A DNA stretch of 64,000 nucleotides. It comes from Candidatus Binatia bacterium. Lineage in GTDB: Bacteria; Desulfobacterota; Binatia; Bin18. The notes below the pieces were generated by a model that ran no database searches, had not been told where the DNA came from, and was given only the letters and a program-made list of their open reading frames with translations. Where the stretch lies: the NCBI GenBank assembly GCA_965231775.1, contig OZ246888.1, positions 338,853 to 402,852 on the forward strand. Direction: 5' to 3'. Positions within the stretch are counted from its first letter, which is position 1. Every line of letters starts with the position of its first letter. Shown in pieces: positions 46,324 through 62,891 of this stretch. A program made the position numbers and the translations under genes.

Positions 46324-46434
46324 TTAGCCCAGCGTGGGAGAGCGCTCAAGGCGTGTAGAGCCGGGGATTCTCTTGTCAGACGACCTATACGGGGGGATGA
46401 ACGGCGTTACATGGGTGTCGAGCAGCAGAGTCAC
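46324..46434 (-). pseudogene. truncated PIN/VapC toxin stub (36 codons)
   Basis: GTG overlaps the antitoxin stop (GTGA). Begins VTLLLDTHV, the VapC N-terminal motif, then terminates. SelO starts 10 nt further on. Confidence 0.4.
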
Positions 46435-46664
46435 GCCAACATGTCCCAGTCGTCGGTCGAGTCAGTGTAGACGAGGTCGCCGTGAATAGTCATCTGGCCC
46501 TTCAGCCCACCGAGTTGTTTGCCCGCAGGAAGTTCTGCGAACGGCTGGATGGCCACAAGGGGTTTTCCACGCAGCGTCACGATCATGGGCTCGCGGGAAC
46601 ACTGGACTTCCTTGAGTACAGCTATGCACTTTGCTTTGAATTCAGACACGAGCATTGTCTTCAT
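46431..46664 (-). CDS. Phd/YefM-type antitoxin (VapB-like)
   Basis: MKTMLVSEFKAKCIAVLKEV...PMIVTLRGKPLVAIQP is a typical prevent-host-death family antitoxin. Confidence 0.65.
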   Translation of the reverse strand: MKTMLVSEFKAKCIAVLKEVQCSREPMIVTLRGKPLVAIQPFAELPAGKQLGGLKGQMTIHGDLVYTDSTDDWDMLA

Positions 46665-50146: not shown

Positions 50147-51304
50147 ATGATGCAAGAGATACCAGCGGGAATCATTTCATCGGACGGCCATGTGTGTGAG
50201 CCGGCCAATTGTTATATCGACTATATTGAACCAAAATACCGGGATGTCGCGCCGCGCATCGTGGAACAACCGGACGGCACGGACGCCTTTGTCGTCCACG
50301 GCATGAAGCGGCCGATTCCCCTGGGATTCATTGATGGCGCCGGCTTCACGGTCACGGAGCGCAATAAACGCGCAAAAAAAGCCAAGTTCTCGGATATCCG
50401 TGAGGGAGCCTACGGCGGCCATGCACGGATTCCGTATATGGACCAGGATGGGATTGCGGCTGAAGTCATCTACGCTTCTATTGGGATGGGCCTGTGCATG
50501 CACCGCGACCCCGATTATAAAAACGCCTGCATGTTAGCCTATAACCGTTGGCTGCAAGCCATGTGCGGCGAAGCGCCGAACCGCATCCTGGGTCTGGCCC
50601 AGACGGCGGTCTTGAGCGTGGACAGTGCGATTGAGGATTTCCGGCGCGCCAAGGACATGGGTATGGTCGGCATGATGATGCCCGGTCGGCCCATCTACGA
50701 AGACTATGATCACGCCGACTACGACGCCCTGTGGGAGTGCGCAACGGACCTCGGTCTGCCGATCTGTTTTCATATTCTGACCTCGCGCGACGGCAGCCTG
50801 AACATGCCGCACCGCGGCCATGAGATGAATAATTTTCTGGGCATTATCCGGGCCGTCCAGGATGTTGTCGGCCTCCTGGTCCTGGGTGGCGTCTTCGAGC
50901 GTCATCCGCAATTGAAACTGGTGTGTGCCGAGGGCGACGCCGGCTGGATGCCGCACTATATGTACCGCATGGACCACGCCGCCAAAATTAACGCCGAGGG
51001 CGGAATCATGGACGGCCTGTCACAACTGCCCAGCGCATATATCAAACGCAACGTATGGATGACGTTCCAGGACGACCCGACGGCGTTTCATGCGGTCGAT
51101 ATCATGCCGCACCAGCAACTGCTGTGGGCCAGCGATTTTCCGCATACGGATTCCACCTGGCCGCGCTCCCAGCAATTACTGGCCGACCACGCGGCCCATA
51201 TCACCGAAGAGCAACGCCAGGACATCATGCGCGAGAATGCCGCCAAGCTGTTTAATCTGCCGGCGGGAAAGAAGTCGTGGCGGATGCATGAGGCCCCTGT
51301 GTAG
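50147..51304 (+). CDS. amidohydrolase-2 family protein
   Basis: Paralog of 18880-20004 (ASDFPH motif). Confidence 0.75.
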   Translation: MMQEIPAGIISSDGHVCEPANCYIDYIEPKYRDVAPRIVEQPDGTDAFVVHGMKRPIPLGFIDGAGFTVTERNKRAKKAKFSDIREGAYGGHARIPYMDQDGIAAEVIYASIGMGLCMHRDPDYKNACMLAYNRWLQAMCGEAPNRILGLAQTAVLSVDSAIEDFRRAKDMGMVGMMMPGRPIYEDYDHADYDALWECATDLGLPICFHILTSRDGSLNMPHRGHEMNNFLGIIRAVQDVVGLLVLGGVFERHPQLKLVCAEGDAGWMPHYMYRMDHAAKINAEGGIMDGLSQLPSAYIKRNVWMTFQDDPTAFHAVDIMPHQQLLWASDFPHTDSTWPRSQQLLADHAAHITEEQRQDIMRENAAKLFNLPAGKKSWRMHEAPV

Positions 51305-51308
51305 GGAA

Positions 51309-51345
51309 ACCCTCACCCTGGCCCTCTCCCAGAGGGAGAAGGGAA
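51309..51345. repeat. partial copy of the GC-rich inverted-repeat element found complete at 57037-57132
   Basis: ccctcaccctggccctctcccagagggagaaggg contains the hairpin ccctctccc-aga-gggagaaggg. The first ~37 nt are near-identical to 57040-57076. The second hairpin and the closing outer stem are lacking. Confidence 0.6.
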
Positions 51346-51352
51346 ATGCACT

Positions 51353-51514
51353 TTACGAACTCGGCTGCATGCCAAGGTCCTTTAACGGCGTGCGGTCCAC
51401 GATCGGCAGGCGGCGTGTCCTCGGCGTGAGTTTGACCGAGCCCGGTACGCGGCTGAACTGATCGACCAGGTCGATTTCCTTGGCGTATGTTGCGGGGCTG
51501 GTGAAGTTGCTCAT
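51353..51514 (-). pseudogene. 3' fragment (~50 codons) of an LLM monooxygenase; copy of the 3' end of 57139-58479
   Basis: Minus-strand translation ...YAKEIDLVDQFSRVPGSVKLTPRTRRLPIVDRTPLKDLGMQPSS* aligns with YAKEIELVDQFTRVPGSVKLTPGTRRLPIVDRTPLKDLGLQPKA*. High nucleotide identity over ~150 nt. No N-terminal body. Confidence 0.7.
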
Positions 51515-51573: not shown

Positions 51574-52206
51574 CTACTTTGAGCGCTCCCATATCCTGCC
51601 GAAATACTCTAAGGTTCTATCGCCGAAGAATAAGAGTGTGATGACAAGGATACCAAAACAGGCACTTGCCCATAACGGCGCGCAAAGCCACTCTGCCCTC
51701 ACAAGGACAAGAAGCGTCCCGAAGACCAAAAACAAAGCGATCGCGGTGAATCCGCTACGCTGGCATCGATTGAGCCAGAAAAGCTTCTCTGTGTTCGGCT
51801 GAACCGCTTGACGACATTCCCACAGTATAGCCGTGATTTCTTCCCGCAGTGCATCTTCATGTGATAGCTCCTGGAAATCATACACGGTTTCCAGCGCCAC
51901 CCGATATGGTTTCCTGACACTCAATACTTTGATCGCATAGAACAACCCTTTTCCTAGGAAAAGGACGCTGGCTAGAAAAGCAACCAGAAGAAGCCACCTG
52001 CTATCCCCGGCGATCTTTACGAGGGATTCAATTCTCGGAACGATGAGGCTAGCAAGGACGCCGAGTATTGCTAGCATCGCCGTGGCGCGGGTCTCAGCAG
52101 CTTTACCACGTTCTACCTCTTGTACCGCACGCTGTTTGACGAATGTGAGTGACTGCTCCAAAACTTTGACATCGTTTGACGTGATACAGTTCCGTATATC
52201 AAGCAT
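51574..52206 (-). CDS. 4-TM membrane protein (last gene of the ATP-grasp operon)
   Basis: Four hydrophobic segments with a ~60-aa soluble insert. Its ATG overlaps the ATP-grasp stop (ATGCTTGA). Low-GC sequence. Confidence 0.5.
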   Translation of the reverse strand: MLDIRNCITSNDVKVLEQSLTFVKQRAVQEVERGKAAETRATAMLAILGVLASLIVPRIESLVKIAGDSRWLLLVAFLASVLFLGKGLFYAIKVLSVRKPYRVALETVYDFQELSHEDALREEITAILWECRQAVQPNTEKLFWLNRCQRSGFTAIALFLVFGTLLVLVRAEWLCAPLWASACFGILVITLLFFGDRTLEYFGRIWERSK

Positions 52207-53182
52207 GAATCTCTTCCCGCACATTGAGACAGTCAATAATCGCGTCTCTGATCGGATACCCAACCTTTCGCTCTATCCACGCCCACTGCCCATTCGGATT
52301 CAATTCGAGAAAGTAGAATTCATTGTCAGTGCCCTTCACGAGGTCAATTGCTGAGTACTTTAAGCCAAAGTGACGCGTAATAGCGCGACACCTACACGCT
52401 ATCGGGTTCGGCAACTGGATCGCCTCGTGCTTCAGGTCAAACGCATTAACATCCCACAAACGCCAGTCAACTTCAGTTTCAGAGTAATCCTGCGAATGGA
52501 TCGCAGTGGCAAAAACCTGATCCCCGACAACCGTCACCCTGATATCAAACAGCTTTGGAATTTCTCGCTGGTAGATCATCGGTACTGGCGCATACTTATC
52601 GAAGTCGCTCAGAAATTGCTGATCGACTCTTTTCGTAGGTGCTACGGTTACGATATTCTCCCCCCGAGTAAATCCGTGCTTCACGGCCTTACAGACAACG
52701 CGTCCACCATGCATTCTATGAAAGGCACGCACCCGTGCCCCTGTCATGGTTACGCAAGTCTCAGGGATCAAGTAACCGAGGCCACGGGCTACTGAAAGCT
52801 GCTCTATTTTGTTGGAAGCTAACCACAGATCGCGCGGATGATTTAGCCATATATCCCGATCAATCAGCCGCCAAAGGCTCCTGAGAGCTTCCTTCAACTC
52901 TCGATGTACGAAGGGGCGGTCAGCGCATGCTACAGTGTCTGGAACACTTGGCGAAATCGGCTGCCGGAAATAAACTGCTGAAACTGACGAATTCGAGATT
53001 GTCTGGCCGTCCGCCTTGGTGAGACGAAAATCAGACGAAGATGCGCTGAGCTCAACCTCCAGATCAAAACGGATACCAAAATCCTCAGTATTCAGTCGCG
53101 TAAAGGGAATGCCACGTTCTTTGAGACGTAAGATAAGGTAATCGCACGCTAGGTCCGTTTTATTGGTGACAATTAGTAACAT
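52199..53182 (-). CDS. MvdD-family ATP-grasp ribosomal peptide maturase (graspetide ligase)
   Basis: MLLIVTNKTDLACDYLILRLKERGIPFTRLNTEDF, DIRVTVVGDQVFATAIHSQDY..VDWR and YSAIDLVKGTDNEFYFLELNPNGQWAWIE align along their length with microviridin ligase MvdD (recollected). Confidence 0.7.
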   Translation of the reverse strand: MLLIVTNKTDLACDYLILRLKERGIPFTRLNTEDFGIRFDLEVELSASSSDFRLTKADGQTISNSSVSAVYFRQPISPSVPDTVACADRPFVHRELKEALRSLWRLIDRDIWLNHPRDLWLASNKIEQLSVARGLGYLIPETCVTMTGARVRAFHRMHGGRVVCKAVKHGFTRGENIVTVAPTKRVDQQFLSDFDKYAPVPMIYQREIPKLFDIRVTVVGDQVFATAIHSQDYSETEVDWRLWDVNAFDLKHEAIQLPNPIACRCRAITRHFGLKYSAIDLVKGTDNEFYFLELNPNGQWAWIERKVGYPIRDAIIDCLNVREEIHA

Positions 53183-53412
53183 CCCTCATCCTCGGGATCA
53201 GGATCATCGTCACCGGGGGCTGCGAAAGTCTTAGACTCAGTCCTAATAGAATCCTCTTTAGAAACCAGGGGAGACCTCGTTCCATCCCGGGTTACGATAT
53301 TGATCTGTTGGTCTTCATCATAGTGAACGACTACATCTTCCAACTCGTACTGTTTTGCAGTCACAAGAAGGTACGCACGTTTTCCAGTCACTAGACCCCT
53401 CCTATCCTCCAT
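53173..53412 (-). CDS. small acidic protein; candidate graspetide precursor peptide
   Basis: 79 aa. Its stop overlaps the ATP-grasp start by 10 nt. The C-terminal region TRDGTRSPLVSKEDSIRTESKTFAAPGDDDPDPEDEGCY is rich in Thr/Ser/Lys donors and Asp/Glu acceptors. Confidence 0.4.
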   Translation of the reverse strand: MEDRRGLVTGKRAYLLVTAKQYELEDVVVHYDEDQQINIVTRDGTRSPLVSKEDSIRTESKTFAAPGDDDPDPEDEGCY

Positions 53413-53496: not shown

Positions 53497-56334
53497 TCAG
53501 CGACGTTCCGACAAGTTAAGCATCAGTAACTCCCGAAGAACCTCGTCATCGCTCACATCCGCGTTCCAGCCGTAAGCTGCCGCCACGGCGGCATCAAGGG
53601 CAGTGTGTGCATCAGTCAACCATTGCGGGCGGGTGTTGTAGAGATTGGTCAGGGTGCGTTTCTTGAGTGCTTTCGCTACGTCCTCGTTGCGGGGAACCGG
53701 GCGTTTGGGATAGCCGGGGACCGGCTCGTCTACCCACTCCACCCATTCCGGCGGGTTGAGCCAATTATCACGCAACTCGACCTGCCGCCGGGCGGCCTCA
53801 GCAATGGCAATGGCGCGGGGGTCCTTGGCGTAATCGGATGCGGGGATATCGGGCGACAGTCCATCTGGAAACGGGAACGTCTCAAATGTTGTGGTCGGCG
53901 TGTAGCGCGGGCGGTCTTCCAAGGTGGTGCCGAGCCGGAGCGACCATATTTCATGAAACCGACTATGCAAAATGCCGAAGGTCGTGTCATCGTCGCGGGC
54001 GACGACAACCAACAGATTCTCGGGGTAGATTGCCGGATCGCGCCAGACAAACAATCGGTATTTTGCTGTCATCGACGTTGCGATGTAGCGGGAAACGGTT
54101 TTAATTTTCCTGAACATGGCCTGTCCAGAACGGTCATGCCGCCACCAGTTTTTCCGCAAATCAGTGCGCCGATTGAGGTCCCTTTCGGGCTTTACATGCT
54201 TTTGAACATAGGCGAACGGCGCTTCGTAAAGTGCCGCGTCGGCTTCGCTCATTTCGTGCCCGAAGTCGATGACCCATTTGTCGGCTGGCCGCCGGGTAAC
54301 ATCCATACCGTTGATCCACGGCTTGAGAACATCCGCGTTGGGTCTGCCGTTCGGGTTCGTGGGCAGACAGAGCCATTCACGAGCCAGATCGCCCGGAATG
54401 TCGAAACTTCCCCTTTTGTATCCTCCCCGGAAAGCCGTCTGTCTATTTCGTTCTTGCTCTCGGGCTTCCGTAAGATCGACAATTCCGCCCGTCAGGTCAG
54501 CGTTGATTTGCGGAGCGGCGTTCCCATTGAGGCGAACGGGCAGCTTGGCCGCTTTGTCGGTAAAGCAAACCAGAGACACGCGGACAGCGGCGCCATCAAT
54601 CACCCATGGCTCATCCGACCAAGCATCGTAAATCGTCGAATGCCCAACAATCCGGCTCAGCACGGTGCGATTCTTTCCGTCGCGGATCGAATTCGTCGCG
54701 ACCAAACCAGCGCGGGCGAGCTTGCGATCGGCTACCAGACGAGTAGCCTTGTCGAACCAGTAGCAAACGAGATCGGCGAAGGCTGGTACCAATCCCTTTC
54801 GGGATCGATAAAGGTTTTCCGTATAGGCGTCGCCAAGCACTTGGCGCATCCTCTTGTTCCCCAAAAACGGTGGATTGCCGATCACGACATCGGCCTTGGG
54901 CCAGTCGGATTCACTACCCTCTGGCGTCAGGATGGCGTCCCGGCATTCGATGGTGTCAAGCGGTTTGAGAATCGGGTCGCGAGATTCGTTGAATCCGTTG
55001 CGCCGCATCCATTGGATTTCGCCAATCCACACCGACACACGGGCTAACTCCGCAGCGTAGGCGTTAATCTCGATGCCCTTGACGTTGGCCGGGCCGATAG
55101 CAGGGAATTCTCTCTCTAAGCCCAGCGCTTCGGCCTCCAACTGTACACGATGCTCCAAGTCCTTGAGGGCATGCAGCGCCAGATAAAGGAAGTTGCCCGA
55201 GCCGCAGGCCGGGTCAAGCACGGTGAAGCTCCGCAGCCGGTGGAGAAACGCGCTCAACAGGCGCTCGGCTTCGGCCTGTCGGCGCGTGCGCGTGGCCGTG
55301 GATTTGGCGGTCTCCGCTTTTTCCAGGACAGCAGCGATCTCGGCCTTGGCCGTCTCCCACTCGGTCAACCAGGGGCGAATGATTACCGGCGCGACAATCA
55401 GCATGATCTTGTCGCGGTCGGTGTAATGCGCGCCCAGTTGCGAGCGCTTGTCAGGGTCAAGCCCGCGCTCGAACAGCGTACCGAGAATTGAGGGATCAAT
55501 CTCCGACCAGTCGAGGGCCGCAGCCGCGAGTACGGTATCAATGTCGGTTTTCTCCAGTGGTAGGGTCGTATCGTCGTTAAACAACCCACCGTTGAACCAC
55601 GCCACCGGCTCAAAGCCGACCAGGCCGCCTCTGGCCATCGCCCCGAACAGGGCACGGGCCATCGTGGCGAACTCTTCAGGCCGCTTGTGGGCCTCCTCCA
55701 GCATCCGCGTGAACATGTTGTTCGGCAGCAGGCCCACGTCTTCGGCGAACATGCAGAACACAAGCCGGTTCACGAAATGCGCTACAACGTGACTCTCGTG
55801 GCGGCGTTCCCGTAATGCCTGCGCCAGGGTGGCAAAAGTGGTGGCTGCGCGTTCGGTGACGGTTTGGCGCGTTTCGCCGGGCCGGAGCCGTTCGGGCTCG
55901 GCCATCGCCCATTTTAAGATATTGCGCGTGGCTGCGTCCGCGAGATCGTCCAGCGTAAACTCGTGGGTCTCGCTGACGCTGTTGGTCCAGTTGGTGCGGA
56001 TACGGAACCGCGCCATGTCCGAGACGATCAACAGTGGCGGATTCTCCAGTGCCAGGGCGTACTGCCGTAACTGATTGAAGGCCGCGTCCAGATTCTTGTG
56101 TTTGCCCTTGTACTCCCAGGCAAAGTGATATCGCTTCCACACATCGGCCCAGCCCTTGCCGCCGGTGTCTTTACGCGCGCCACGCTCGAAGCAGTAATGG
56201 TCGCCGGTGGGGTCGGCTTGGGCCGGCGTGGATTCACCGAGCAGACGACACAGGTCAATGAAATGCTCTTGCGACGCCGAACGCTCTTTTAGCTCCGAGG
56301 CGCGCCACTTGGTAATGAATTCGCTTGGCGTCAT
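53497..56334 (-). CDS. MmeI-like type IIL restriction-modification enzyme (single-chain endonuclease + gamma-class N6-adenine methyltransferase + TRD)
   Basis: The N-terminus aligns with the MmeI nuclease domain (D...EYK in DTGGKGWADVWKRYHFAWEYKGK, then PPLLIVSDMARFRIRTNW). Motif I is VLDPACGSGNFL. Motif IV is VVIGNPPF. The 945-aa length matches the family. Confidence 0.7.
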   Translation of the reverse strand: MTPSEFITKWRASELKERSASQEHFIDLCRLLGESTPAQADPTGDHYCFERGARKDTGGKGWADVWKRYHFAWEYKGKHKNLDAAFNQLRQYALALENPPLLIVSDMARFRIRTNWTNSVSETHEFTLDDLADAATRNILKWAMAEPERLRPGETRQTVTERAATTFATLAQALRERRHESHVVAHFVNRLVFCMFAEDVGLLPNNMFTRMLEEAHKRPEEFATMARALFGAMARGGLVGFEPVAWFNGGLFNDDTTLPLEKTDIDTVLAAAALDWSEIDPSILGTLFERGLDPDKRSQLGAHYTDRDKIMLIVAPVIIRPWLTEWETAKAEIAAVLEKAETAKSTATRTRRQAEAERLLSAFLHRLRSFTVLDPACGSGNFLYLALHALKDLEHRVQLEAEALGLEREFPAIGPANVKGIEINAYAAELARVSVWIGEIQWMRRNGFNESRDPILKPLDTIECRDAILTPEGSESDWPKADVVIGNPPFLGNKRMRQVLGDAYTENLYRSRKGLVPAFADLVCYWFDKATRLVADRKLARAGLVATNSIRDGKNRTVLSRIVGHSTIYDAWSDEPWVIDGAAVRVSLVCFTDKAAKLPVRLNGNAAPQINADLTGGIVDLTEAREQERNRQTAFRGGYKRGSFDIPGDLAREWLCLPTNPNGRPNADVLKPWINGMDVTRRPADKWVIDFGHEMSEADAALYEAPFAYVQKHVKPERDLNRRTDLRKNWWRHDRSGQAMFRKIKTVSRYIATSMTAKYRLFVWRDPAIYPENLLVVVARDDDTTFGILHSRFHEIWSLRLGTTLEDRPRYTPTTTFETFPFPDGLSPDIPASDYAKDPRAIAIAEAARRQVELRDNWLNPPEWVEWVDEPVPGYPKRPVPRNEDVAKALKKRTLTNLYNTRPQWLTDAHTALDAAVAAAYGWNADVSDDEVLRELLMLNLSERR

Positions 56335-56455
56335 GGCGTTATTATTTTGGAGTGCCTGTGCATGGATGACGTTCCAAGACGATCCAAAATCGTTTCATCT
56401 TTGGAAAAGGGGGAAGAGATGTTGGGGAAGTTAGATTGAGGGGGCTCCGTGTAGT

Positions 56456-56797
56456 TTAGCCACCAAGAATATCATGCAATAATTCTTGGAGAGTCTTTTG
56501 ATCCTGCTCCCCTAAGCGGCCCAGCTTCTTGAGAATAAGCGTTTTTTCGATAGTGGCCAGTACTGGTTTGATGGTAGACGGTTTCAAAAGGCCGGCTGCT
56601 TTCCAGCCCACAATATGGGCCTCCCCCCGTGTGGATGTTGGTCTGGCCTGACTGGTGATTGCAATAATGATGAGGTCAAGGCGACCTCGGTTATAAGCAG
56701 ACGAACTCACTACCGCTGCCGGGCGCTGTTTACTTGTGGTCTGGTCCGTAAAAGGAAAGGGCGCGAGGACGATGTCTCCAAACTCATAGCTGGTCAT
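56456..56797 (-). CDS. MazF/PemK-family toxin
   Basis: MTSYEFGDIVLAPFPFTD...KQRPAAVVSS...DLIIIAITS is the PemK/MazF signature. Start chosen at 56797. Confidence 0.65.
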   Translation of the reverse strand: MTSYEFGDIVLAPFPFTDQTTSKQRPAAVVSSSAYNRGRLDLIIIAITSQARPTSTRGEAHIVGWKAAGLLKPSTIKPVLATIEKTLILKKLGRLGEQDQKTLQELLHDILGG

Positions 56798-56999
56798 AGT
56801 CGGCATCGTCCGGATTATCCCAGACGCGAGCAAAGGCCGACTCGGACAACTTGGTCGCTGCCTGGCTTAGGCGACGGTCGGCGTCACGCTGACAGAGAAA
56901 ATCGACAAAGTCTTCAACCTCGGAGACTTTAGCCGGTGGCAGGAGCCGGATTTTTTCGATCAGCTCCCGGACATGTGTATCATCAGTAGCCATTCTCAC
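56784..56999 (-). CDS. putative antitoxin of the MazF-like toxin
   Basis: 71-aa acidic protein immediately upstream of the toxin and overlapping it. LPPAKVSEVEDFVDFL is the antitoxin-like motif. Confidence 0.5.
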   Translation of the reverse strand: MRMATDDTHVRELIEKIRLLPPAKVSEVEDFVDFLCQRDADRRLSQAATKLSESAFARVWDNPDDADYDQL

Positions 57000-57036: not shown

Positions 57037-57132
57037 AAGGAACCCTCACCCCGGCCCTCTCCCAGCGGGAGAGGGGATAAAAGGTAGGGGCAACCCCCTG
57101 TGGTTGCCCGGTCCCCCGTCGGTGAGGGAAAA
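57037..57132. repeat. structured GC-rich element with nested inverted repeats, 3' of the LLM gene (terminator or REP-like)
   Basis: The outer stem cctcacc...ggtgagg encloses two hairpins: ccctctccc-agc-gggagaggg and gggcaacc-ccctgt-ggttgccc. A partial copy lies at 51309-51345. Confidence 0.6.
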
Positions 57133-57138
57133 CCCAAC

Positions 57139-58479
57139 CTACGCCTTCGGTTGCAGGCCAAGGTCCTTCAAGGGTGTGCGGTCCACGATCGGCAGGCGGC
57201 GTGTCCCCGGCGTGAGTTTGACCGAACCCGGTACGCGGGTGAACTGATCGACCAGCTCGATTTCCTTGGCGTATTCTTTGACCGCAGGAATGACCTCCTG
57301 GCCCATCAGGCGGATGCTGTTCAGCCGGTCTTCGTTGCCGACTGGCCCTTGAACCTGGAAGCAGGCGAACGTCCCTGGCCGCAGCACGCGGATCATGGTC
57401 TTGATCTTTTCAATCACGGTCTTGGGCGAGCCGACGATCATCAGGTAGTCGTCCTGGGCGCGCTTATACGACTTCTCCAGCTTACGACGGACCTCACCCA
57501 GGTCCGTACTCCTCTTTTTCCGGCCCTGCTGGGCCTCCTTGAGCCGGTCCGAATCAACCCCGACCCAGCCGCCGCTCGGACGCTGGGCCAGCAGGCGAAT
57601 GGCGTTTTTGGAATTATAGCCCGGCGGTAAGGTGTGTTCCGGTCTGGAGAAGGAACTCGCTCCACCGCCCCACACAAACCCTTTGCCCAGCTCCTGAGCC
57701 TTTTCATCCGTGTCCGCGCAGAACACCCCAATCAAATAGGCAAAATTTTCCGTGCCGGCCTGATAGCCGTTTTCGGCCGCGGTATCGGCGTAATAGTCCA
57801 GCAGGTCGCAGGTTGGACTCAGGGCGGTCACCAGGGCCAGATAGGGATAGTTATGCTGGGCCGCCCAGTGCACCGTCTCGGGGCTCAACACGCCGGGAAT
57901 CCACATTTGCGGATGCGGCTTCTGGTAGGGTAGCGCCCACGGATTGACATGGCGGTAGTGAAAATGCTTGCCCTCGTAGCGCCACGGGCCGGGCTTGGTC
58001 CACGCCTGGATAATGAAGTCGTGGGCTTCGTTGAACATCTCGCGGTTATAGGCCGGGTTGGCATTATTGAAGAACTGCTCGCTGCCCGCCCCGCGCACCC
58101 AGCCGGTGACGAGACGCCCGCGTGAGATCAGATCGATCTCGGCCAGCTCTTCGGCCATGCGCAGCGGATGCTTCAGCACCGGCAACGGATTGCCGATCAG
58201 GACGATCTTGGCCTTGCTGGTAATACGCGCCAGGATGGCGGCTTCGACATTCATGACGCTGCCCATACAGAAGGGGTTGCCGTGGTGCTCGTTCAGCATG
58301 AGCGCATCAAAACCGACCTCTTCGGCATAGCAATATTCATCTAGAAAAAAGTTATAATCGTCGGCCGCCTTTTCGCGGTCAAAGCGCGCGTTGGGCAGGG
58401 CAAAGAAACCCCGGTGTTCAAGCACTTCGTCTTCGTCGACCCAGCGATACGGTCGCTCAGTAAAATAGCCAAATAGCAT
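57139..58479 (-). CDS. LLM-class flavin-dependent oxidoreductase
   Basis: Paralog of 12356-13705 (NEHHGNPFC, LISRGRLVTGWVRGAGSEQ). Confidence 0.8.
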   Translation of the reverse strand: MLFGYFTERPYRWVDEDEVLEHRGFFALPNARFDREKAADDYNFFLDEYCYAEEVGFDALMLNEHHGNPFCMGSVMNVEAAILARITSKAKIVLIGNPLPVLKHPLRMAEELAEIDLISRGRLVTGWVRGAGSEQFFNNANPAYNREMFNEAHDFIIQAWTKPGPWRYEGKHFHYRHVNPWALPYQKPHPQMWIPGVLSPETVHWAAQHNYPYLALVTALSPTCDLLDYYADTAAENGYQAGTENFAYLIGVFCADTDEKAQELGKGFVWGGGASSFSRPEHTLPPGYNSKNAIRLLAQRPSGGWVGVDSDRLKEAQQGRKKRSTDLGEVRRKLEKSYKRAQDDYLMIVGSPKTVIEKIKTMIRVLRPGTFACFQVQGPVGNEDRLNSIRLMGQEVIPAVKEYAKEIELVDQFTRVPGSVKLTPGTRRLPIVDRTPLKDLGLQPKA

Positions 58480-62144: not shown

Positions 62145-62891
62145 CTAATCCGCCAGGGGCTTGAAGCCGCCAAAAATCGCAAAATTCAGAAACTTCCAAT
62201 AGCAGTCCACAATAGTGAAGCCGGCCTCTCGCCACCAGTTTAGCTGAGGTTCCAGTGGAGCAATATGGCTACTCTGCCCCTTGGGACGCTGCATGGCGGT
62301 CCGCACCTGGCGAATTTCTTCGAGCGAGTGCAGCTCTCCTGTCTGCTCCTGGACCTGCTGCTGGATAACCCGATCCGCCAAGGGGGTGAACTGGTCGCGT
62401 AACGCAGGCTCCCCGGCAACCACGTCATTGTTGAGGAACAGGCCGCCAGGCTGGAGCAGACCGAACACCTCAGCACAAAGCGTTCGCTTGCGCTCATCGG
62501 TCAGGTGATGCAGCGCAATGGCTGAGACTGCGGCATGAAACGGTCCGGGCAGATCGGCGTGCCAGGTGGGATCGGCCAGATCGCGCAGAAAAAGTTCGAC
62601 TTGCACGCCATACTTGCTGAGGCGGGGCTCGGCATGCTCGTGCATGGCGGTCGAGCCGTCAACCCAGGTGACTGTTGCGTGTGGATAATAGGAGAGAATC
62701 GTCTCTGTGACCGCCCCATAGCCCGCGCCTAAATCGAGCACACGGATCGGTTCATCAGCCGACCAAGGGAAGAGGTCGAGCAAGGTATTGAGTTGCTCAA
62801 GGCGCTTCGGAATCAAAAACGCGCTCCGCTGTACAAAATAGTCAACTTTGTCTTGATCTCCCCAGCCACACAGGGTATCCGGCTCGGCCAT
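62145..62891 (-). CDS. class I SAM-dependent methyltransferase
   Basis: VLDLGAGYGAVT motif I. Small-molecule MTase size. Confidence 0.7.
   Translation of the reverse strand: MAEPDTLCGWGDQDKVDYFVQRSAFLIPKRLEQLNTLLDLFPWSADEPIRVLDLGAGYGAVTETILSYYPHATVTWVDGSTAMHEHAEPRLSKYGVQVELFLRDLADPTWHADLPGPFHAAVSAIALHHLTDERKRTLCAEVFGLLQPGGLFLNNDVVAGEPALRDQFTPLADRVIQQQVQEQTGELHSLEEIRQVRTAMQRPKGQSSHIAPLEPQLNWWREAGFTIVDCYWKFLNFAIFGGFKPLAD

What the first reader, a model, noticed from the sequence alone, without database searches (positions are those of the whole stretch)
53497..56334. Single-polypeptide MmeI-family (type IIL) restriction-modification enzyme
- The N-terminal 120 aa align with the MmeI endonuclease domain, including the D...ExK catalytic triad context (GWADVWKRYHFAWEYKGK).
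- The centre carries motif I VLDPACGSGNFLY and motif IV GNPPF of gamma-class N6-adenine methyltransferases.
- About 350 aa of probable target-recognition domain follow.
- MmeI-family enzymes cut at a distance and methylate one strand. They are prized because their specificity can be re-engineered.
- This copy sits on a horizontally acquired segment beside a toxin-antitoxin pair.
Basis: partly seen in the sequence, partly recalled or inferred. Interest (0 to 1): 0.55.

Follow-up and report, generated by a model that had tools for sequence, protein, structure and literature searches.

The report
Ordinary MmeI-family restriction-modification enzyme gene
This gene encodes one large protein that, by sequence, both marks the cell's own DNA with a methyl group and cuts unmarked foreign DNA; it is an intact but ordinary member of the well-studied MmeI family, which has thousands of close relatives in public data.

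Summary
The ORF at 53497-56334 (minus strand, 945 aa) is real and every quoted motif is present. Four of the five MmeI Pfam domains pass their cut-offs in the MmeI order; MmeI_C falls just short. The only sequence match among solved structures is MmeI (5HR4), which is also the top fold match. BREX PglX models score 22-31 bits against cut-offs of 400-900. The nuclease triad D64-X9-E74-X-K76, motif I DPACGSGNF and motif IV NPPF are invariant in 73 aligned copies, and the TRD ends in the family's FPFP motif.

No second DNA methyltransferase and no BREX or DISARM gene lies within about 10 kb. No neighbour is conserved across 80 related loci.

Corrections:
- The TRD is about 250 aa plus a 120-aa C-terminal helical domain, not 350 aa.
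- The gene has host-like GC and sits at the same site in three related genomes. Only its flanks (a MazF pair and an ATP-grasp cassette) look recently acquired.

At positions aligned to MmeI's specificity residues, the enzyme has N773, L774, E806, R808 and R810. By the published MmeI code this predicts a site ending in G-A-C. The clade toggles E..R/G..D at 806/808.

This is a new member of a known kind, of low interest. Activity is untested.

The parts
53497..56334 (-). Complete gene for the 945-aa MmeI-family (type IIL) restriction-modification enzyme, stop codon included
   Evidence: ORF list and translation. Pfam MmeI_N, MmeI_hel, MmeI_Mtase, MmeI_TRD and MmeI_C in MmeI order. PADLOC REase_MTase_IIG E 3.7e-300. 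5HR4 MmeI E 2.9e-44. The start matches full-length homologues.
55807..56334 (-). N-terminal PD-(D/E)XK endonuclease domain (aa 1-176)
   Evidence: Pfam MmeI_N covers aa 2-176, E 3.6e-13. It aligns to MmeI 14-155. E17 aligns to MmeI E25; E17 and E50 are invariant in the clade.
56107..56145 (-). Catalytic motif D64-X9-E74-X-K76 (DVWKRYHFAWEYK)
   Evidence: Aligned to MmeI D70, E80 and K82. All three residues are 73/73 conserved. Mutating these residues abolishes MmeI cleavage, as reported in PMC2731913. Coordinates verified.
55435..55806 (-). Helical spacer ('arm') between nuclease and methyltransferase (aa 177-300), including the conserved Trp in LDW276S
   Evidence: Pfam MmeI_hel covers aa 182-252, E 3.6e-14. 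The AF2 model is all-helical here with pLDDT 74-91. LDWS aligns to the LDWS of MmeI. Its length is within about 10 aa of MmeI's 156-300 spacer.
54604..55434 (-). [quoted passage not shown]
   Evidence: Pfam MmeI_Mtase covers aa 354-577, E 5.5e-31. Eco57I and N6_Mtase give weaker overlapping hits. The profile aligns to MmeI 341-596.
55183..55221 (-). AdoMet-binding motif I, VLDPACGSGNFLY (aa 372-384)
   Evidence: Read directly. DPACGSGNF is 73/73 conserved. It aligns to FFDPACGCGNFL of MmeI.
54865..54879 (-). Catalytic motif IV, GNPPF (aa 486-490)
   Evidence: Read directly. NPPF is 73/73 conserved. It aligns to GNPPF of MmeI.
53860..54603 (-). Target recognition domain (aa 578-825): a divergent N-terminal half (578-752) and an MmeI-like C-terminal half (753-825) ending in FPFP
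   Evidence: Pfam MmeI_TRD covers aa 753-824 against profile positions 135-206 of 207. Ungapped profile alignment to MmeI 764-824. FPFP lies at 820-823, nt 53866-53877, and is the family hallmark. TRD-N is the most divergent domain, median identity 57% against 71-81% elsewhere. It is not confidently modelled, pLDDT below 50.
53905..54018 (-). Predicted specificity-determining residues: N773-L774 (nt 54013-54018) and E806-D-R808-P-R810 (nt 53905-53919)
   Evidence: The numbering matches MmeI N773, A774, E806, R808 and R810 in the ungapped alignment. The published code reads ExR as C at position 6, R810 plus a bulky residue 774 as G at position 4, and position 5 as the methylated A. In the clade, 806/808 is a coupled switch: E..R in 42 copies, G..D in 25.
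53497..53859 (-). C-terminal helical domain (aa 826-945) plus stop codon
   Evidence: Pfam MmeI_C covers aa 889-939 at 25.5 bits, just under the cut-off of 27. There is a weak alignment to MmeI 850-884. The AF2 model is mostly helical, pLDDT about 43-79.

Best explanation
The gene encodes a stand-alone type IIL (MmeI-family) restriction-modification enzyme.

Shown by sequence:
- One polypeptide carries five domains in MmeI order: a PD-(D/E)XK nuclease (D64/E74/K76), a helical arm, a gamma-class N6-adenine methyltransferase (DPACGSGNF, NPPF), a fused target recognition domain ending in FPFP, and a C-terminal helical domain.
- No partner gene is present.

Inferred from characterised family members (PMC2731913, PMC2731914, PMC4833311):
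- The TRD and MTase domains clamp an asymmetric 6-7 bp site. The adenine at position 5 is flipped out and N6-methylated on one strand only, which protects host DNA.
- On unmethylated DNA, with AdoMet bound and two sites occupied, the arm places the nuclease about two helical turns downstream. It cuts about 20/18 nt away and leaves a 2-nt 3' overhang.
- One TRD directs both activities, so a mutation in it changes methylation and restriction specificity together.

Inferred for this enzyme:
- Residues N773, L774, E806, R808 and R810 match the engineered MmeI A774L pattern. The site is therefore predicted to end in G-A-C at positions 4-6.
- Position 3 may be C or Y. Positions 1-2 cannot be predicted.
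For: - Domains: four of the five MmeI Pfam domains pass their cut-offs in the MmeI order; MmeI_C is 1.5 bits short.
- Profiles: PADLOC REase_MTase_IIG E 3.7e-300.
- Structures: MmeI 5HR4 is the only sequence match among solved structures, E 2.9e-44 for the single sequence and 1.8e-59 for the profile. It is also the top Foldseek match, E 6.7e-19, ahead of the type IIG enzyme BpuSI at 2.7e-07.
- Motifs: D64/E74/K76, E17, E50, DPACGSGNF and NPPF are invariant, and FPFP is present in 72 of 73 aligned copies.
- Spacer: its length is within about 10 aa of MmeI's.
- Context: no second DNA methyltransferase and no BREX or DISARM gene lies within about 10 kb. The neighbours are metabolic genes, a TA pair and an ATP-grasp cassette.
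- Partners: no neighbour is conserved across 80 related loci, the best being 8 of 80. This matches the family description.
- Specificity: the clade varies at exactly the positions that set MmeI specificity, with a coupled E806..R808 versus G806..D808 switch. TRD-N is its most divergent domain.
- Annotation: plasmid homologues at 52-58% identity are annotated as type IIL MmeI enzymes.
Against: - No activity data exist for this protein or, as far as could be checked here, for any close member of its 65-95% identity clade. REBASE could not be queried.
- Identity to MmeI itself is low, 20-21% over the fold alignment. Sequence alignment is good only for aa 5-559 and 764-824.
- TRD-N (578-752) is about 50 aa longer than MmeI's. 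It is not covered by the Pfam TRD model and was modelled at pLDDT below 50.
- MmeI_C is just below its Pfam cut-off.
- No convincing promoter or Shine-Dalgarno sequence was seen upstream, so expression is unproven.
- The specificity prediction transfers a code derived from much closer MmeI relatives.
Confidence: 0.85

Rival explanations
1. It is an MmeI-family protein that now acts only as a methyltransferase. It would be an orphan or domesticated epigenetic enzyme whose nuclease is silent or regulated off, so it gives no restriction.
For: The gene has host-like GC and has stayed at one chromosomal site in several related genomes. This fits a long-term resident rather than a selfish invader. 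Restriction in native hosts has not been explicitly shown even for characterised family members. Several copies in other genomes are split or truncated.
Against: D64, E74 and K76 and the accessory acidic residues E17 and E50 are invariant in 73 copies. The nuclease domain is the best-conserved domain, median 81% identity. That argues for selection on cleavage. This copy is intact.
Confidence: 0.08
2. It is another kind of type IIG/IIC enzyme (BpuSI-, Eco57I- or TaqII-like) that differs from MmeI in cut distance or in strand modification.
For: The Pfam Eco57I methylase domain scores 32 bits. BpuSI is the second fold match. TRD-N is not recognisably MmeI-like.
Against: MmeI-specific models outscore Eco57I on the same stretch, 108 against 32 bits. 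Nuclease motif spacing, spacer length, TRD-C, FPFP and the specificity positions all align to MmeI. No companion methyltransferase gene is nearby.
Confidence: 0.05
3. It is the methyltransferase and specificity subunit of a multi-gene defence system, such as BREX PglX, DISARM DrmMI or MADS, rather than a self-contained enzyme.
For: PADLOC DrmMI models match aa 482-824, best E 2.1e-75. A mad2 model matches aa 67-315, and PglX models match the MTase core.
Against: NCBIfam PglX models score 22-31 bits against cut-offs of 400-900. The DrmMI, mad2 and PglX matches cover only shared sub-domains. The protein has its own conserved nuclease. No PglZ, BrxC, BrxL or DrmA/B/C-like gene lies within about 10 kb. 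No partner is conserved in 80 loci.
Confidence: 0.02

Closest known systems
MmeI (Methylophilus methylotrophus; PDB 5HR4), founder of the type IIL family, site TCCRAC(20/18)
   Same: - Same five-domain order.
- Same D-X9-E-X-K nuclease motif, motif I DPACG.GNF and motif IV NPPF.
- Conserved Trp in LDWS, and spacer length within about 10 aa.
- TRD-C aligns without gaps, with identical residues at N773, E806, R808 and R810.
- No partner gene.
   Different: - Only about 20% identity over the fold alignment.
- TRD-N is about 50 aa longer and not alignable by sequence.
- L774 replaces A774, which predicts G rather than R at position 4.
- FPFP replaces MmeI's FPWI.
- The residue before the conserved Thr (MmeI E751 position) appears to be Ala. 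The recognition sequence is therefore predicted to differ.
Characterised MmeI-family enzymes such as NmeAIII (GCCGAG) and the engineered MmeI A774L (TCCGAC) (PMC2731913, PMC2731914)
   Same: The N773+L774+R810 combination equals NmeAIII N783/L784 and MmeI A774L (G at position 4). E806..R808 equals the 'C at position 6' state. The clade's alternative G806..D808 state equals the 'G at position 6' state, seen in one characterised enzyme with Gly plus Asp.
   Different: None of the 20 characterised enzymes could be aligned directly here because no sequences were available. The relation rests on MmeI numbering only.
[quoted passage not shown]
   Same: Full-length collinear matches at 52-58% identity, and 65% to an unannotated Tistrella mobilis plasmid record. 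PDLC03627 scores 996 bits.
   Different: These are predicted, not characterised. The window protein belongs to a tighter 65-95% identity clade found mostly in uncultured MAGs.
BREX PglX and DISARM DrmMI methyltransferases
   Same: They share the gamma-class MTase core and, for DrmMI, a related C-terminal MTase/TRD region at aa 482-824.
   Different: No PD-(D/E)XK nuclease is expected in those proteins, whereas one is present here. Scores are far below family cut-offs. No companion BREX or DISARM genes are present.

Membership tests
MmeI family (type IIL R-M enzymes) | Single polypeptide with an N-terminal PD-(D/E)XK endonuclease domain carrying D-X9-E-X-K | tested here: met
   Pfam MmeI_N E 3.6e-13. 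D64/E74/K76 align to MmeI D70/E80/K82 and are invariant in 73/73 copies.
MmeI family (type IIL R-M enzymes) | Helical spacer of about 145 aa between nuclease and MTase, with the conserved Trp (MmeI W287) | tested here: met
   Pfam MmeI_hel E 3.6e-14. LDW276S aligns to LDWS of MmeI, and W276 is invariant. The model is helical with pLDDT 74-91.
MmeI family (type IIL R-M enzymes) | Gamma-class N6-adenine MTase domain with motif I before motif IV (NPPF/Y) | tested here: met
   Pfam MmeI_Mtase E 5.5e-31. DPACGSGNF (374-382) precedes NPPF (487-490), both invariant.
MmeI family (type IIL R-M enzymes) | Fused TRD directly after the MTase domain, ending at the FPFP motif: C-terminal subdomain with the specificity positions | tested here: met
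   Pfam MmeI_TRD covers aa 753-824, E 7.3e-08. Ungapped alignment to MmeI 764-824. FPFP lies at 820-823. A coupled 806/808 switch is seen in the clade.
MmeI family (type IIL R-M enzymes) | TRD N-terminal subdomain (MmeI 621-745) of the same fold | tested here: inconclusive
   There is no Pfam coverage of TRD profile positions 1-134. AF2 pLDDT is below 50 across 611-819 with the shallow alignment available. The region is alignable within the clade and to the PADLOC IIG model PDLC03599 and DrmMI models.
MmeI family (type IIL R-M enzymes) | C-terminal helical bundle after the TRD | tested here: inconclusive
   Pfam MmeI_C scores 25.5 bits against a cut-off of 27. Helices are predicted at 839-859, 904-920 and 929-942.
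MmeI family (type IIL R-M enzymes) | No second DNA methyltransferase gene and no conserved partner gene nearby | tested here: met
   Neighbours within about 10 kb are metabolic genes, a TA pair and an ATP-grasp cassette. The only other methyltransferase (62145-62891) is a generic small Methyltransf_25 type. No neighbour is shared by more than 8 of 80 loci. The criterion comes from PMC2731913.
MmeI family (type IIL R-M enzymes) | m6A on one strand only; AdoMet-dependent cleavage 20(+/-1)/18 nt downstream; two sites needed | not testable with these tools
   This is biochemistry. It needs a methylome or purified enzyme.
BREX PglX | Reaches the NCBIfam PglX family score; has no own nuclease domain; encoded with PglZ, BrxC and BrxL | tested here: not met
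   NF033452 scores 30.7 bits against 500, NF033455 23.9 against 900 and NF033451 22.4 against 400. A nuclease domain is present. No BREX genes are nearby.
DISARM DrmMI | Full-length match to DrmMI models and co-location with DrmA, DrmB and DrmC | tested here: not met
   DrmMI models match only aa 482-824, a sub-region of profiles of 792-1347 positions. No Drm-like genes are in the neighbourhood.

The most novel reading that the evidence does not exclude
The window's enzyme may belong to an unusually tight clade of MmeI-type enzymes. Members are all about 945 aa and 65-95% identical to it.
- The clade has spread across more than ten bacterial phyla, apparently within marine-sponge symbiont communities, often with two copies per genome.
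- It may be retargeted in place by swapping the TRD and by toggling the canonical specificity residues (E806..R808 against G806..D808), while the nuclease, arm and MTase scaffold stays fixed.
- If so, it would be a natural community-wide example of the MmeI engineering logic, and a ready panel of new specificities.
- The phyletic spread and the residue switch are observed. The sponge origin, the recency of transfer and any difference in recognition sequences are not verified.
Probability: 0.3. Interest if true: 0.4.

Novelty: new member of a known kind. Interest (0 to 1): 0.15.

Why it matters
- For annotation: it fixes the call as a type IIL R-M enzyme, not a plain 'N-6 DNA methylase' as some sources name close relatives.
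- For the host methylome: it gives a testable prediction of a one-strand m6A motif ending in G-A-C.
- For enzyme discovery: MmeI-family enzymes are useful because specificity can be read from, and rewritten at, a few residues. This clade shows natural variation at exactly those residues, so it could supply new specificities.
- For biology at large: nothing here challenges current understanding. It is an expected defence gene at a variable locus.

Tried and rejected
- Exact-sequence look-up of the window protein found no record. The same look-up for P0007 also failed.
- Structure prediction used the only alignment allowed, 39 sequences at 73-95% identity. It gave mean pLDDT 60 with the TRD below 50. 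It could confirm MmeI as the top fold match but not the TRD-N fold. A second, deeper run was judged not worth two more whole-database searches.
- Partner genes: I clustered ORFs within 3 kb of 80 homologous loci. Nothing was shared by more than 8 loci.
- Operon link to the 79-aa ORF and the ATP-grasp gene was considered and rejected. The cassette is absent from all three syntenic genomes and has much lower GC.
- Integrase or tRNA-bounded island was rejected. No tRNA is in the window and no integrase lies between the repeats.
- The promoter and terminator scan was uninformative. Promoter-like sites were below the shuffled expectation.
- Positions 1-2 of the recognition site were not predicted, because TRD-N cannot be aligned to MmeI.
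- REBASE is not among the tools.
Full report
**1. Observation**

- The ORF list gives 53497..56334 on the minus strand, ATG start, 945 aa.
- GWADVWKRYHFAWEYKGK is aa 61-78, VLDPACGSGNFLY is aa 372-384 and GNPPF is aa 486-490. Coordinates were re-checked by translation.
- Homologues start at the same Met and have the same length, so the gene is intact.

**2. Identity**

- Pfam places five MmeI-specific domains in the MmeI order:

| Domain | Residues | E-value |
|---|---|---|
| MmeI_N | 2-176 | 3.6e-13 |
| MmeI_hel | 182-252 | 3.6e-14 |
| MmeI_Mtase | 354-577 | 5.5e-31 |
| MmeI_TRD | 753-824 | 7.3e-08 |
| MmeI_C | 889-939 | 25.5 bits, cut-off 27 |

- PADLOC's best model is REase_MTase_IIG, E 3.7e-300.
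NCBIfam BREX PglX models reach 22-31 bits against cut-offs of 400-900. PADLOC PglX, DrmMI and mad2 models match only shared sub-domains.
- Among solved structures, the only sequence match for the single protein is MmeI (5HR4), E 2.9e-44. A family profile gives 1.8e-59; its only other matches are two weak ones (E 5.7e-05 and 1e-04) to 8cws/8cwy chains of unclear relevance.
- The AlphaFold model from the allowed, shallow alignment is mediocre: mean pLDDT 60, TRD below 50. Foldseek still ranks MmeI first (E 6.7e-19) and the type IIG enzyme BpuSI second at 2.7e-07.

**3. Catalytic and hallmark residues**

- The HMMER alignment puts D64, E74 and K76 on MmeI D70, E80 and K82, and E17 on MmeI E25. 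PMC2731913 names these as the conserved PD-ExK residues.
- I aligned the query with 72 full-length copies from public genomes. D64, E74, K76, E17, E50, DPACGSGNF and NPPF are invariant. The TRD-terminal FPFP motif is present in 72 of 73.
- The Trp in LDWS (W276) aligns to the LDWS of MmeI, which I take to hold the W287 that PMC2731913 singles out. It is invariant in the 39-sequence alignment.
- The helical spacer is within about 10 aa of MmeI's length. The family cut distance of about 20/18 nt is therefore the expectation. This is an inference.

**4. Context**

- Neighbours within about 10 kb are metabolic genes: SelO, a beta-lactamase-fold protein, an FAD monooxygenase, an amidohydrolase, a luciferase-like (LLM) oxidoreductase, an enoyl-CoA hydratase and an SDR. 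There is also a MazF/antitoxin pair and an ATP-grasp cassette.
- There is no second DNA methyltransferase and no BREX or DISARM gene.
- Across 80 related loci, no neighbouring ORF family occurs in more than 8. The MmeI family paper reports the same absence of partners. The enzyme is self-contained.

**5. Is it on an acquired segment?**

- Three related genomes carry a homologue at the same site, between the LLM gene and the amidohydrolase gene. They are L001 (an ENA metagenome contig), L007 (Ca. Binatia OY761159.2) and L009 (Ca. Binatia OZ220487.1).
- The gene's GC (0.593, GC3 0.70) equals that of its neighbours. It is therefore not a recent arrival.
- The flanks are recent. The MazF pair (GC 0.52-0.55) is absent from L001 and L009 and partly deleted in L007.
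- The ATP-grasp cassette at 51574-53412 (GC 0.48-0.50) is absent from all three.
- A diverged direct repeat brackets the locus: 51308-51488 against 57041-57274, 86-92% identical, including a duplicated 3' end of the LLM gene. Fragments of the amidohydrolase gene recur at 56343-56398. Both point to past rearrangement.
- No tRNA is in the window, and no integrase lies between the repeats.

**6. Evolution of the enzyme at this site**

- Against L007, the flanking proteins are 91-99% identical. The enzyme is 75% identical overall, and its TRD N-terminal half only 56%.
- Against L009, the TRD N-terminal half is 51% identical.
- A copy in an unrelated context (L002) is 87% identical. An alphaproteobacterial copy (L010) has a closer TRD-N (72%) than the syntenic Binatia copies.
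- Across the clade, TRD-N is the most divergent domain and the nuclease the most conserved: median identity 57% against 81%.
- This is the pattern expected for an R-M enzyme whose specificity domain is exchanged or evolves quickly. It is in line with PMC2731913.

**7. Specificity prediction (inference)**

- The family profile aligns without gaps to MmeI 764-824. Query N773, L774, E806, R808 and R810 therefore correspond to MmeI N773, A774, E806, R808 and R810.
- The published code and crystal structure say three things:
  - E806..R808 reads C at position 6, while Lys (Gly in one characterised enzyme) at 806 with D808 reads G.
  - R810 reads a purine at position 4, narrowed to G by a bulky residue at 774, as in MmeI A774L.
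  - Position 5 is the methylated adenine.
- The predicted site therefore ends in G-A-C.
- N773, with a small non-charged residue (A752) before the conserved Thr, suggests C or Y at position 3. This is weak. Positions 1-2 depend on TRD-N and cannot be read.
- In the clade, 806/808 is a strictly coupled two-state switch: E..R in 42 copies and G..D in 25, with rarer G..T or G..A. Positions 773/774 take many combinations.
- The syntenic L007 and L009 copies carry G806/T808 and different 773/774 pairs. They probably recognise different sites.

**8. How common it is**

The top 120 hits are all 73-95% identical and of the same length.
- The genome scan found 594 loci. The best 80 (64-78% identity) come from Binatia, Latescibacterota, Alphaproteobacteria, Dehalococcoidia, Caldilineaceae, Acidimicrobiia, Vicinamibacterales, Bryobacterales, Gemmatimonadota and others. 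Several genomes hold two copies.
- Plasmid homologues at 52-58% identity are already annotated as type IIL MmeI enzymes.
- Many MAG names suggest marine-sponge symbionts (Ca. Poriferisodalis, and names ending in _bin_). Sponge projects do report Binatia and Latescibacteria MAGs, and enrichment of R-M systems in sponge microbiomes is known. I did not verify the origin of these records.

**9. Verdict**

- This is an intact, probably active, stand-alone MmeI-family type IIL enzyme. It is a new member of a large, already annotated kind.
- Activity, cut distance, one-strand methylation and the recognition site remain untested.
- Interest is low.

Noticed in passing
window 51574-53412 (minus strand): 53173-53412 (79 aa), 52199-53182 (327 aa), 51574-52263 (229 aa): This is a low-GC (0.48-0.50) three-gene cassette directly downstream of the enzyme gene. 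The 327-aa protein is an MvdC/MvdD-type ATP-grasp ribosomal-peptide maturase: TIGR04187 scores 226 bits and MvdC 202 bits, both below their cut-offs. It overlaps a 79-aa ORF with no family match, whose acidic, Thr/Ser/Lys-containing C-terminus (TESKTFAAPGDDDPDPEDEGCY) looks like a graspetide precursor. A 229-aa membrane protein follows. The cassette is absent from all three syntenic genomes, so it is probably a separately acquired, divergent graspetide (RiPP) cluster.
   Followed up: partly
window 56456-56999 (minus strand): A PemK/MazF toxin (125 aa) overlaps a DUF2281/VapB-like antitoxin (71 aa) by 50 nt, just upstream of the enzyme gene. The pair is absent from L001 and L009. In L007 the antitoxin is intact (96%) but only 68 of 125 toxin residues remain. 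The pair is therefore a variable add-on, not a fixed partner of the enzyme.
   Followed up: partly
window 51308-51488 and 57041-57274; also 56343-56398: A diverged direct repeat (86-92% identical) brackets the whole locus. It consists of a GC-rich hairpin element (CCCTCTCCCAGAGGGAGAAGGG; two copies in the window, none expected by chance) and a duplicated 3' end of the LLM oxidoreductase gene. Short remnants of the amidohydrolase gene (50147-51304) lie just upstream of the enzyme's start codon. These are signs of old rearrangement or recombination at this site. No integrase or tRNA is present.
   Followed up: partly
L003-L082, P0001-P0120: The clade is tight: members are about 945 aa and 64-95% identical to the window protein. 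Yet it is spread over more than ten phyla of uncultured bacteria, and several genomes hold two copies (for example OY761159.2, OZ220487.1, OY761475.2). Many MAG names suggest marine-sponge symbionts, but this origin was not verified.
   Followed up: partly
L007 8001-10850 and L009 8001-10871, compared with window 53497-56334: At the same chromosomal site, with flanking proteins 91-99% identical in L007, the enzyme is only 73-75% identical and its TRD N-terminal half 51-56%. Residues differ at the MmeI specificity positions: window NL/E.R, L007 SQ/G.T, L009 HQ/G.T. This looks like allele replacement or rapid retargeting at a fixed locus.
   Followed up: yes
L056 10834-12033 and 7 other loci: In 8 of 80 related loci, a roughly 399-aa ORF of one family starts right at the end of the enzyme gene on the same strand. 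It is not present in the window and was not characterised.
   Followed up: no
L012, L021, L035, L039, L059, L075, L077, L082: Some copies in other genomes are split into two ORFs or truncated. They may be pseudogenes or long-read assembly frameshifts. This is relevant to how often these enzymes are inactivated.
   Followed up: no
window 46431-46664 (minus strand): This is a 77-aa Phd/YefM-type antitoxin ORF (29.3 bits, just under the cut-off of 29.8) with no obvious toxin next to it in the window. The syntenic contig L001 has extra genes beside it (DUF4096, a PIN-domain protein and a 66-aa ORF). This marks a second small variable spot.
   Followed up: no
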